A DNA stretch of 64,000 bases from IMG/VR virus record IMGVR_UViG_3300025678_000005; one strand, written 5' to 3'. The notes beneath the pieces are model-generated. The model did not search any database. It saw only the letters and a program-made list of their open reading frames with translations, and was not told where the DNA came from. Both the position numbers and the translations under genes were made by a program. Of the stretch, positions 28,509-39,276 are shown in pieces (position 1 is the stretch's first letter; the number at the start of each line of letters is the position of its first letter). The DNA comes from a virus. Lineage: Duplodnaviria > Caudoviricetes.

Positions 28509-28581
28509 CACCCTCGCCCCGATTCGAACAGAGATCTGACAATTTTGAAGATTGTGGTTTTACCAATTAAACTACGAAGGT
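28509..28581 (-). tRNA. Opal suppressor tRNA (anticodon UCA), probably Trp-accepting
   Basis: Cloverleaf ACCTTCG/CGAGGGT; D arm GTTT-AATTGGTA-AAAC; anticodon arm ACAAT-CTTCAAA-ATTGT; T arm CTCTG-TTCGAAT-CGGGG. A1-U72 and G73, short variable loop, no encoded CCA. Confidence 0.92.
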
Positions 28582-32432: not shown

Positions 32433-32471
32433 AAGAGGAGTATGCTGAAAATCCTTTAAAAGAGTAGGCAA
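32433..32471 (+). promoter_or_regulatory. Leader RNA motif, copy 1
   Basis: AGGAG-TATGCT-GAAAA-TCCT-TTAAAAG-AGTA-GGCA. Confidence 0.55.
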
Positions 32472-34686: not shown

Positions 34687-34722
34687 AAGGAGGTTGCCGA
34701 AAATCCATAAAAGAGTAGGCAA
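34687..34722 (+). promoter_or_regulatory. Leader RNA motif, copy 2
   Basis: AAGGAGG-TTGCC-GAAAA-TCCA-TAAAAG-AGTA-GGCAA. Confidence 0.55.
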
Positions 34723-37802: not shown

Positions 37803-38132
37803 ATGGATCAAAGAATAGAAAATTTTATAGATTTTTTGATAGATCTTGATAAAAAAGATCTATCAACAGAAAAGATTATTCAAAAGATAGAAAGTTATTT
37901 ATCTTCTTGGAGGCCTTTTGATCATGATGCAGATTCATTAGAAGACGCTTGTAAACCAGAAATGGCACCTGTACAAAGTATAACCGATCTTTTTACAAAA
38001 AATGCAGATGATTCTATGTCTTCAATTGTAGAAAACTTAGAAAAACTTGTTACAAAAAGAACCCTTACATTTGCTTTATATAAAAGTATGTTAGAAGAAT
38101 TTGAAATTTTTAAATCAGAACATAAATTATGA
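37803..38132 (+). CDS. Tandem paralogue family, member 3 (TGA stop in ATGA overlap)
   Basis: RIENF...SWRPFDH...AC...ENLEKLVTKRTL. Confidence 0.75.
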   Translation: MDQRIENFIDFLIDLDKKDLSTEKIIQKIESYLSSWRPFDHDADSLEDACKPEMAPVQSITDLFTKNADDSMSSIVENLEKLVTKRTLTFALYKSMLEEFEIFKSEHKL

Positions 38133-38449
38133 ATCAAAATATCTCAAATCTAATAGATATGCTATTAGATATAAATGATGATTTACCTATTGAATCATTA
38201 ATATTAAAAATTGAAAATCAAGTAGCAACTTGGACACCGTATAATCATGCTTCTGATTCAATGCTCGAAGCTTGCAATATTTCAGAAAAAACTTTAGACA
38301 GATTAAAGAAAAATATACTTAAATCTTTAGATTTTAAACCATCTGAATTTATTGAAGAAGTAGAAAAAACGCTGCCTAAAAGAGCGGTCACATATGTGTT
38401 ATTTAGAAGCATATTGAATGTTTGTGATCATCACATGCAAAAAAAGTAA
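38129..38449 (+). CDS. Tandem paralogue family, member 4
   Basis: NISNL...TWTPYNH...AC...EVEKTLPKRAV. Confidence 0.75.
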   Translation: MNQNISNLIDMLLDINDDLPIESLILKIENQVATWTPYNHASDSMLEACNISEKTLDRLKKNILKSLDFKPSEFIEEVEKTLPKRAVTYVLFRSILNVCDHHMQKK

Positions 38450-38580
38450 TAACCTTTATGTGTCTAGAAATAAAATCTTCATTAATTGTGTCAAAGGAAC
38501 TCATTATTTGTTATAAGGCCATTAAACGAATAAAGAAGGCAGATAAAATCTTTATAATAAAATAATCAATTAACTAAAAT

Positions 38581-38649
38581 GGGGCAGTCTGGGTTGGTTT
38601 TCCTCTATTGAGAGAAAACATTACGTGGGTTCAATTCCCACCTGCTCCA
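38581..38649 (+). ncRNA. tRNA-Ala/tmRNA tRNA-like-domain mini-RNA lacking a D stem and canonical anticodon loop
   Basis: Acceptor GGGGCAG/CTGCTCC-A with G3.U70; T arm GTGGG-TTCAATT-CCCAC; central stem GTTTTCCTC-TATT-GAGAGAAAAC. Confidence 0.7.
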
Positions 38650-38846
38650 CTTTTTAAATCTTTAAGGTTATGGCTATAATAGTGACATTTAATTTAAAAA
38701 AACAAAAAGATACTTTAATATGGGATCAATATTTTATGAATTATGATGATCTCTTAAGATATAAGAAAAGAATAGAAAGTGAAGAAAAATCTTCTATATT
38801 GATTACTAATATAAGAGAAGTTTAATTTAATAAAAATAAAATTAAA

Positions 38847-39276
38847 ATGAAAAAAGAAATATTAACCGCTGAATTGGTAAATAAATTTGGTATAGAAGGA
38901 AATGGTAGAAAATTATTTTATAAATTATCTCATAAAATAAAAAGGGGACAAGTACCATTTCATAATGATGATATTGTAAAAAGTTTGGAAGAAGACAAAG
39001 AATTTCTTCTTAAGGATGAATTTAAACAATATGTTGATGATTGTTTAGATGGAATTGAATATGTGTGTATTTCGGATGCTTTTGGATTTTATGAACGTTG
39101 CTGCAACTTCTTGTGAAAGATGTGGAAAGAAAGAATATTTAATATTCCCAACTGCTATAGGAGGTGAAAATACATTTTCAATGTCTGGTGGAGATAGATT
39201 TTCTATGAAAGAACCAGAATTTTATCTTAAAGAACTTGCTGAATTAAACGGCTTTAAATGGGGAGGTATAAAATAA
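38847..39276 (+). pseudogene. Possibly frameshifted hypothetical gene (ORFs 38847..39116 and 39049..39276)
   Basis: Two overlapping frames that both read as protein and meet at a TGTGTGT repeat near 39062. Confidence 0.4.

What the first reader, a model, noticed from the sequence alone, without database searches (positions are those of the whole stretch)
38581..38655. 69-nt alanine-tRNA/tmRNA-like mimic without a D stem or reading frame
Seen: a perfect acceptor stem with G3.U70 and A73 (AlaRS determinants) and a perfect T arm. An unpaired TCTGGGTTG replaces the D arm, and a long bulged stem with a 4-nt loop replaces the anticodon arm. This is the architecture of the tmRNA tRNA-like domain with the mRNA part missing. 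Inference: a decoy for SmpB, EF-Tu or tRNA-targeting defences. Interfering with trans-translation could matter for a phage whose ribosomes pause at recoded UGA codons.
Basis: partly seen in the sequence, partly recalled or inferred. Interest (0 to 1): 0.7.

Follow-up and report, generated by a model that had tools for sequence, protein, structure and literature searches.

The report
Phage tag-less mini-tmRNA gene
A crAss-like gut-type phage that reads TGA as tryptophan in its late genes carries a 69-base RNA gene made only of the alanine-accepting, tRNA-like end of the bacterial ribosome-rescue RNA (tmRNA); this kind of RNA is already known from mycobacteriophage DS6A, so it is a new member of a known kind, not a new device.

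Summary
No reading frame overlaps it. It is a sharp GC island (49% against 27%).

A covariance model built from nine other phage "tRNA-like-domain-only" RNAs, including the published DS6A one and excluding this one, finds it full length. It scores 41.5 bits (E 2e-7) and is the only hit in 64 kb. Rfam tmRNA aligns both its ends at 42.0 bits; DS6A scores 43.2. Rfam tRNA gives 25.5 bits and ARAGORN finds nothing.

So it is a tag-less mini-tmRNA, a kind reported for DS6A, where a similar molecule inhibits tmRNA in E. coli. This scan has already found the same kind on many other phage DNAs.

The most likely action is competition with host tmRNA for SmpB, EF-Tu and AlaRS. That is inferred, not shown. 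The proposed link to TGA recoding is untested. The other carriers checked use the standard code.

Weak points:
- Only 97-99% identical copies were found.
- The usual GAC/GGAC motif is missing.
- Expression could not be checked.

The parts
38581..38649 (+). Whole 69-nt TLD-only mini-tmRNA-like RNA, from mature 5' G1 to discriminator A73. CCA is not encoded.
38581..38587 (+). Acceptor stem, 5' strand GGGGCAG. G3 is at 38583.
   Evidence: It pairs with 38642-38648.
38588..38596 (+). Stemless D-loop analogue UCUGGGUUG. It keeps the GG that contacts the T loop in tRNA and tmRNA.
   Evidence: It aligns to the UGGgUU block of model R1.
38597..38619 (+). Helix in the place of tmRNA H2 (P2): 6 bp, a bulged A and 3 bp, capped by UAUU. 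There is no anticodon and no coding part.
   Evidence: Model R1 skips this segment as a local insertion.
38620..38624 (+). Linker AUUAC. The AC just before the T stem is invariant in the phage TLD-only alignment.
38625..38641 (+). T arm: 5-bp stem GUGGG/CCCAC with loop UUCAAUU.
38642..38649 (+). Acceptor stem, 3' strand CUGCUCC (U70 at 38646), plus discriminator A73 (38649).
38650..38655 (+). CTTTTT run directly after the discriminator. It is a possible transcription stop and 3' trailer that would be trimmed before CCA addition.
   Evidence: This is inference only; the terminator scan does not call it.
38553..38558 (+). TATAAT hexamer 23 nt upstream, a possible -10 box. No good -35 box accompanies it. 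Weak evidence.
   Evidence: Promoter-like sites are not more frequent than in shuffles.
38066..38073 (+). TACATTTG, a Bacteroidota-type -7 box (TAnnTTTG) ahead of ORF 38129-38449. It could drive co-transcription of that ORF with the RNA.
   Evidence: Inference.
28509..28581 (-). Phage tRNA with anticodon UCA, A1-U72 and G73 (Trp-like). It is the opal suppressor that reads the late genes. Given as context, not as part of the element.

Best explanation
This is a real small RNA gene of the phage. It is a tag-less mini-tmRNA that keeps only the tRNA-like domain (TLD). It lies in the standard-code early arm, so it is probably made early or in the middle of infection, either from its own weak promoter or as the tail of the upstream small-ORF transcript. 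RNase P would cut at U(-1)/G1, the U-rich trailer would be trimmed, and the host CCA-adding enzyme would add CCA. G3:U70 and A73 then make it a substrate for host alanyl-tRNA synthetase. With an intact acceptor-T arm, a D/T-loop elbow and a helix in the place of tmRNA H2, it would present the surfaces that SmpB, EF-Tu and AlaRS use on tmRNA. It cannot offer a resume codon or a tag. It should therefore compete with host tmRNA and reduce the tagging and degradation of proteins made on stalled ribosomes, or cap them with a single Ala instead. What is shown: the structure, the identity elements, family membership by profile, and the genomic setting. What is inferred: expression, processing, charging, SmpB binding and the effect on trans-translation. 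I put about 0.85 on a real gene of this family and about 0.5 on this mechanism.
For: - The fold and identity elements can be read directly and are the minimum-free-energy structure.
- It is a GC island of 0.49 in a 0.27 background, in the top 0.16% of windows.
- It is intergenic and on the same strand as the surrounding early genes.
- Model R1 was built without this sequence, from DS6A and eight IMG/VR elements, with 12 of its 19 pairs covarying. It hits the element full length at 41.5 bits, E 2e-7, as the only hit in 64 kb. True tRNAs score 28 bits or less with R1.
- Rfam tmRNA aligns positions 1-374, that is both ends, at 42.0 bits, against 43.2 for the published DS6A element. The tRNA model gives 25.5 bits, below its cut-off of 29.
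- All known tmRNA partners except S1 bind the TLD. G3:U70 plus the discriminator A are the AlaRS determinants. SmpB needs the D/T-loop interaction (PMC3968760).
- The record encodes no SmpB and no full tmRNA of its own, so the partners must come from the host.
Against: - It lacks the GA of the GAC block, which is invariant in my alignment of nine phage TLD-only RNAs, and the matching GGAC or GAC on the 3' side. It has GGU and UUAC instead. SmpB binding is therefore less certain than for DS6A-type members.
- Its R1 score lies between clear TLD-only RNAs (45-92 bits) and tRNA-Ala-like RNAs with a reduced D arm (26-38 bits).
- Both Rfam scores are below their gathering cut-offs.
- Only three other copies were found, all 97-99% identical strains, so conservation and covariation of this lineage cannot be judged.
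- The nearest phage records by terminase, MT835470 and MT835539, have no such RNA.
- No promoter or terminator stands out above chance.
- No expression data could be obtained.
Confidence: 0.55

Rival explanations
1. It is part of the phage's code-switch kit. While late genes full of UGA are read by the phage tRNA(UCA), ribosomes waiting at UGA are exposed to mRNA cleavage and tmRNA tagging. The mini-tmRNA would block this so that structural proteins are finished and not degraded.
For: The late arm has 85 in-frame TGA against 38 TGG. The early arm has 7 TGA against 82 TGG, and most of those 7 sit at ORF ends, where TGA acts as a stop. The RNA lies in the standard-code arm, so it can be made before the switch. 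[quoted passage not shown] Phage code switching with early-made factors is the published model (Borges et al. preprint).
Against: Three other carriers checked (G002, G003, G004) show no gain in open frames when TGA or TAG is read as sense, and DS6A's annotated genes around its element are intact under the standard code. The RNA class is therefore not tied to recoding. A host with RF2 terminates at UGA instead of stalling, so tmRNA is not the obvious threat.
Confidence: 0.1
2. It is a non-functional relic: a decayed tRNA-Ala or tmRNA gene that merely still folds.
For: This lineage is an orphan. No homologue more distant than 97% identity was found in IMG/VR, JGI metagenomes or GTDB genomes. The closest phage records lack it. 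The GAC/GGAC motif is missing.
Against: All 21 stem pairs are intact in a 27% GC genome that would erode them. G3:U70, A73, the T-loop consensus and the D-loop GG are all kept. It forms a sharp GC island. Similar small forms of 59-85 nt recur in many unrelated phages, with covariation. No leftover of a tag frame or pseudoknots lies nearby.
Confidence: 0.1
3. It is a tRNA-shaped processing or stability signal. It would be a site for RNase P and 3' end formation that punctuates or protects the early transcript of ORF 38129-38449, with no role on the ribosome.
For: It lies 131 nt after the stop of the upstream ORF and has no convincing promoter of its own. A Bacteroidota-type -7 box lies ahead of that ORF. 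A T run follows the element, and a good promoter-like site (10 of 12 matches) starts right after it at 38653.
Against: A processing signal does not need the alanine identity set (G3:U70, A73), which is invariant across the family. The closest profile match is to the tmRNA ends, not to tRNA.
Confidence: 0.1
4. It is a charged Ala carrier or a decoy for something other than trans-translation. Examples are bait for a host defence that attacks tRNA acceptor ends or aminoacyl-tRNA, or an Ala donor kept off the decoding pathway.
For: It has alanine identity but no anticodon. The DS6A-type GAC motif is absent, and the element sits near tRNA-Ala-like RNAs with a reduced D arm in R1 score.
Against: No partner gene was seen; the neighbours have no family matches. 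It cannot bait anticodon nucleases. There is no precedent in the papers read.
Confidence: 0.08
5. It is a phage attachment site (attP) copied from the 3' end of a host tmRNA or tRNA gene.
For: tmRNA genes are common integration sites (PMC11915505 abstract).
Against: Both halves of the acceptor stem are present. No tyrosine integrase was found in the 138.5 kb. The 26-nt 3' end has no exact match in 185,579 species genomes. The phage is crAss-like, and no integrase was seen.
Confidence: 0.02

Closest known systems
TLD-only ('Standard, no CDS') tmRNA of Mycobacterium phage DS6A (JN698994: 28478-28560; tmRNA Website tmID 11587; Mao et al. 2009 as cited in PMC4131195 and PMC11915505)
   Same: Both are phage-borne. 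Both have a 7-bp acceptor stem with G3:U70 and A73, a stemless D-loop analogue with GG, a capped helix in the place of H2, a T arm, no tag frame and no encoded CCA. The Rfam tmRNA scores are nearly equal (42.0 against 43.2 bits).
   Different: This one is 69 nt, against 80 nt. It has GGU and UUAC where DS6A-type RNAs have GAC and G(G/C)AC. Its helix is a plain 9-bp stem with one bulge and a UAUU loop, not a bulged helix with an inner GC-rich hairpin. The carrier is an AT-rich, TGA-recoded crAss-like phage that probably infects Bacteroidota, not an actinobacteriophage.
Bacterial tmRNA (SsrA), Rfam RF00023
   Same: The tRNA-like domain: acceptor stem, alanine identity, reduced D loop and T arm. 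The model aligns to both ends.
   Different: There is no mRNA-like domain, resume codon, tag frame or pseudoknots. The score is 42 bits against a cut-off of 47.
CDS-less tmRNAs of jakobid mitochondria (Rfam RF02544) and of Mallomonadaceae plastids (PMC11915505)
   Same: A tmRNA reduced to a short TLD with no tag reading frame.
   Different: There is no match to RF02544 at E up to 10. Those RNAs are organellar and, at least in mitochondria, co-occur with an SmpB gene, whereas this one is viral with no SmpB in the record.
tRNA-Ala and alanine minihelices
   Same: G3:U70 and A73 in a 7-bp acceptor stem stacked on a T arm. From established knowledge (Hou and Schimmel 1988; Francklyn and Schimmel 1989), that is enough for AlaRS charging.
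   Different: There is no D stem and no 7-nt anticodon loop. Rfam tRNA gives 25.5 bits, below its cut-off of 29, and ARAGORN is silent.

Membership tests
Phage TLD-only (CDS-less) mini-tmRNA, DS6A type | 7-bp acceptor stem with G3:U70 and discriminator A73 | tested here: met
   Direct reading and minimum-free-energy fold. These positions are invariant in all nine family sequences.
Phage TLD-only (CDS-less) mini-tmRNA, DS6A type | T arm (5 bp, 7-nt UUCRAnU loop) and a stemless D-loop analogue carrying GG | tested here: met
   GUGGG-UUCAAUU-CCCAC and UCUGGGUUG.
Phage TLD-only (CDS-less) mini-tmRNA, DS6A type | A capped helix replaces everything between the D analogue and the T arm; no tag frame; total length about 60-85 nt | tested here: met
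   A 9-bp bulged helix with a UAUU loop, 69 nt in all, and no ORF. Family sizes run from 59 to 85 nt.
Phage TLD-only (CDS-less) mini-tmRNA, DS6A type | Match to a profile of the family built without the candidate | tested here: met
   R1 gives 41.5 bits, E 2e-7, full length, as the only hit in 64 kb. tRNAs score 28 bits or less. The score is at the low end of the family range of 45-92 bits.
Phage TLD-only (CDS-less) mini-tmRNA, DS6A type | GAC after the D analogue and G(G/C)AC before the T stem, flanking H2 | tested here: not met
   G19 and A20 are invariant in alignment A1. This element has GGU on the 5' side and UUAC on the 3' side, so only the AC is kept.
Phage TLD-only (CDS-less) mini-tmRNA, DS6A type | Binds SmpB and inhibits trans-translation | not testable with these tools
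   Known only for a DS6A-like molecule in E. coli, as cited in PMC4131195 and PMC11915505.
Phage TLD-only (CDS-less) mini-tmRNA, DS6A type | Expressed and processed into a CCA-tailed small RNA | not tested
tmRNA (RF00023) | mRNA-like domain with resume codon, tag ORF and pseudoknots | tested here: not met
   Only 69 nt. ARAGORN finds no tmRNA. RF00023 gives 42 bits, below its cut-off of 47, with only the ends matched.
tRNA (RF00005), tRNA-Ala | Cloverleaf with a D stem and a 7-nt anticodon loop | tested here: not met
   No D stem and a 4-nt loop. RF00005 gives 25.5 bits, below its cut-off of 29. ARAGORN finds nothing.
mt-tmRNA (RF02544) | Match to the family model | tested here: not met
   No match at E up to 10 in the whole record.

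The most novel reading that the evidence does not exclude
The mini-tmRNA is a working part of the genetic-code switch of a TGA-recoded crAss-like phage. By blocking host tmRNA-SmpB, it would protect ribosomes that wait at the 85 or more in-frame UGA codons of the late genes from rescue and tagging while the phage tRNA(UCA) competes for them. That would make interference with trans-translation a requirement for stop-codon reassignment in phages.
Probability: 0.1. Interest if true: 0.7.

Novelty: new member of a known kind. Interest (0 to 1): 0.35.

Why it matters
Tag-less mini-tmRNAs are still documented in the literature by essentially one phage example, DS6A. This case extends the kind to the crAss-like phages of Bacteroidota and to a phage that switches genetic code during infection. 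It also shows a stripped-down form without the usual GAC/GGAC motif, which helps to define what such an RNA minimally needs. If it does silence host ribosome rescue, it is a compact, easily tested anti-host RNA. If that action turned out to be tied to UGA read-through, it would add a missing piece to how recoded phages get their late proteins made. On present evidence it is an ordinary member of a known, and apparently common, phage RNA class.

Tried and rejected
- Search for relatives. BLAST of the locus against 50,697 phage records found nothing. A short-query BLAST gave only T-arm-sized matches to tRNAs. An exact or near-exact pattern in IMG/VR found nothing.
- Broader patterns found many other TLD-only RNAs but none of this lineage.
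- The metagenome scan gave only three near-identical copies, L059, L061 and L062. The element shows 0 changes, but only about 1-3 would be expected, so this says nothing.
- Two scans of species genomes found no host tmRNA with the same 3' end and no prophage copy. The two hits were chance matches.
- The flanking 106-aa protein has no relative in IMG/VR. PolA found only two distant loci.
- The closest phage records (MT835470, MT835539) and five Steigviridae crAss phages have no such RNA. The R1 hits there are ordinary tRNAs.
- An unannotated stretch in the tRNA array of Kehishuvirus 'tikkala' shares the T arm but has no G3:U70 and a mismatched acceptor stem. It was rejected as a relative.
- The promoter and terminator scan gave no more sites than shuffled sequence.
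- Relatives cannot be drawn for a virus record, so host tmRNA could not be compared.
- The neighbouring small proteins have no Pfam or PHROG family.
- The crude all-frame ORF metric could not tell recoding apart and was replaced by the long-ORF test.
- Mao et al. 2009 is not in the library, so it is cited only through PMC4131195 and PMC11915505.

Full report
**1. What is there**

Window 38581-38649 (+) reads as follows:
- GGGGCAG and CTGCTCC form a 7-bp acceptor stem, with G3:U70 at 38583/38646.
- A73 lies at 38649.
- TCTGGGTTG is unpaired.
- A helix of 6 bp, one bulged A and 3 bp is closed by TATT.
- ATTAC is a linker.
- GTGGG-TTCAATT-CCCAC is a perfect T arm.

RNAfold returns exactly this structure as both the minimum-free-energy fold and the centroid: -27.4 kcal/mol, z = -3.1, with 1 of 200 shuffles folding as well. 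No ORF of 40 aa or more overlaps it. CCA is not encoded; CTTTTT follows. The 69 nt have 49% GC in a 27% GC window. This is the top 0.16% of all 69-nt windows, and the island has exactly the size of the element. ARAGORN sees no tRNA or tmRNA here.

**2. The genome around it**

The window is part of a 138.5-kb IMG/VR virus record, estimated 75% complete.
- The terminase matches only crAss-like phages, with Bacteroides, Flavobacterium, Cellulophaga and Azobacteroides hosts. The best match is 47% identity to MT835470.
- The best near-full-length PolA matches are also crAss-like phages, at 35-38% identity.
- The minus-strand arm (1-32 kb) holds the portal, terminase, tail-fibre and ribonucleotide reductase genes. 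It has 85 in-frame TGA against 38 TGG.
- The plus-strand arm (32-64 kb) holds small ORFs, PolA, helicases and a methylase. It has 7 TGA against 82 TGG. Most of those 7 sit at ORF ends, so there TGA is a stop.
- One tRNA(UCA) with the Trp-like A1-U72 and G73 lies at 28509-28581 (-).

This is the published picture of phages that begin infection in the standard code and switch to TGA = Trp for late genes. The element lies in the standard-code arm, between ORFs 38129-38449 and 38670-38825, on their strand. Its neighbours match no protein family. The record has no SmpB, no tyrosine integrase and no full tmRNA.

**3. Is it one of a family?**

A loose pattern (GGGGCNG, TGGRTT, T loop) found 52 IMG/VR loci, and a wider pattern found more. 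Among them are many RNAs of 59-85 nt with the same plan: an acceptor stem with G3:U70 and A73, a stemless D analogue, a capped helix, a T arm and no coding part.

The published DS6A element (JN698994: 28478-28560) has this plan too. An alignment of DS6A with eight IMG/VR elements gave a consensus fold in which 12 of 19 pairs show compensatory changes and G3:U70 never varies.

The covariance model R1 was built from these nine sequences without the window's element. It finds the element full length at 41.5 bits, E 2e-7, and nothing else in 64 kb.

| RNA class | R1 score (bits) |
|---|---|
| Clear TLD-only RNAs | 45-92 |
| This element | 41.5 |
| tRNA-Ala(UGC)-like RNAs with a tiny D hairpin | 26-38 |
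| Ordinary phage tRNAs | 28 or less |

| Rfam model | Sequence | Score (bits) | Cut-off |
|---|---|---|---|
| tmRNA (RF00023), both ends aligned | this element | 42.0 | 47 |
| tmRNA (RF00023) | L103 | 68.8 | 47 |
| tmRNA (RF00023) | L076 | 59.5 | 47 |
| tmRNA (RF00023) | L003 | 48.3 | 47 |
| tmRNA (RF00023) | DS6A | 43.2 | 47 |
| tmRNA (RF00023) | L002 | 33.9 | 47 |
| tRNA (RF00005) | this element | 25.5 | 29 |
| mt-tmRNA (RF02544) | this element | no match | 65 |

By profile, then, the element is as much a TLD-only tmRNA as the type example, and more tmRNA-like than tRNA-like.

**4. Where it departs**

The family alignment has an invariant GA (of GAC) after the D analogue and AC before the T stem. 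This element keeps the AC but has GGU in place of GAC. Its helix is a plain stem with a UAUU loop. One member-like RNA, L002, shares its acceptor stem and also has a bulged A on the 3' side of the helix, but it has a 7-nt loop. The element is therefore a divergent, stripped-down member.

**5. Conservation**

Only three other copies were found, on metagenome contigs that are 97-99% identical to the window. The element is unchanged in all three. With 1-3% divergence that is expected about as often as not. L062 shares only a 581-bp block around the element; its flanks match nothing in the record. That contig has 1.7x coverage and may be chimeric. No copy exists in 185,579 species genomes, and the nearest phage records have none. 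Conservation therefore neither supports nor weakens the case. The argument rests on structure, composition and profile matches.

**6. How it most likely works**

[quoted passage not shown] PMC11915505 repeats that the DS6A form inhibits the endogenous tmRNA in E. coli. A review, PMC3968760, makes these points:
- All tmRNA partners except S1 bind the TLD.
- G3:U70 and the discriminator A are the AlaRS determinants.
- SmpB binds the elbow and needs the D/T-loop interaction.
- H2 takes the place of a long variable arm.

The element offers all these surfaces and no message. The best reading is a competitor of host tmRNA for SmpB, EF-Tu, AlaRS and stalled ribosomes. Processing by RNase P (U at -1), 3' trimming, CCA addition and alanylation are inferred from the tRNA-like features. 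None was tested.

**7. The recoding idea**

It has a basis in principle. In an E. coli strain with unassigned UAG, tmRNA rescue and degradation block UAG-containing viruses, and deleting ssrA restores them. Against it:
- G002, G003 and G004, which carry clear or candidate TLD-only RNAs, gain nothing when TGA or TAG is read as sense, unlike this record.
- DS6A's annotated genes around its element are intact under the standard code.
- A host with RF2 terminates at UGA instead of stalling.

I give this special reading about 0.1.

**8. Rivals**

A decayed relic is unlikely, given 21 intact pairs and all identity elements in an AT-rich genome. A pure processing or stability signal would not need alanine identity. 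attP is excluded in practice, because both acceptor strands are present, there is no integrase and there is no matching host 3' end. A decoy or Ala carrier for another pathway cannot be excluded.

**9. Verdict**

This is a real, divergent member of the phage tag-less mini-tmRNA class. That class is known from DS6A, and this scan has already met it on many other phage DNAs. The carrier, a crAss-like code-switching phage, is new, and so is the loss of the GAC motif. The kind is not new.

Noticed in passing
window 1-32000 (-) versus 32000-64000 (+): There are two codes in one genome. The late or structural arm has 85 in-frame TGA against 38 TGG. The early or replication arm has 7 against 82, and several early ORFs appear to end at TGA (for example at 38130, 39114, 41382 and 46338).
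   Followed up: partly
window 32435-32470 and 34687-34721 (+): Two matches to the Rfam DUF805b RNA motif score above the gathering cut-off (45.5 and 48.6 bits). Both end in AAAGAGTAGGCA. The first lies about 20 nt before the start codon of a small ORF at the head of the early arm. Their role in a phage is unclear.
   Followed up: no
L012, L013, L015, L016, L018, L020-L022, L024-L026, L029-L032, L046-L048, L073, L100, L102, L114, L118 (IMG/VR): This is a large group of RNAs of about 70 nt with G3:U70, an anticodon loop carrying UGC (Ala) and mostly an encoded CCA. In place of a normal D arm they have a tiny hairpin of the GUAAUGGGUUAC type set directly against the acceptor stem. They look like reduced phage tRNA-Ala genes and grade into the TLD-only RNAs in model score.
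   Followed up: partly
L035:11205-11270 (-) and L002:10167-10234 (-): These are TLD-like RNAs with alanine identity whose central helix ends in a 7-nt loop, UAUUAAU or CUUAUAA, so an anticodon-like triplet (UUA or UAU) is possible. L002 shares this element's acceptor stem and 3'-side bulged A.
   Followed up: no
L062 (ERZ795050 contig, 1211 bp): Only a 581-bp block (window 38345-38925: the tail of the upstream ORF, the mini-tmRNA and the 51-aa ORF) matches the record, at 97.4%. Both flanks are unrelated. This is either a mosaic module in another phage or a chimeric low-coverage contig.
   Followed up: partly
L200:549-625 (Kehishuvirus 'tikkala', OQ198717: 95577-95653): An unannotated tRNA-like stretch lies between tRNA-Trp and tRNA-Met in the tRNA array of a cultured crAss-like phage. 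Its T arm is identical to this element's, but its acceptor stem is mismatched and it has no G3:U70.
   Followed up: partly
G000 outside the window: An open frame of 2924 codons appears only when TGA is read as sense. It may be the giant virion RNA polymerase typical of crAss-like phages.
   Followed up: no
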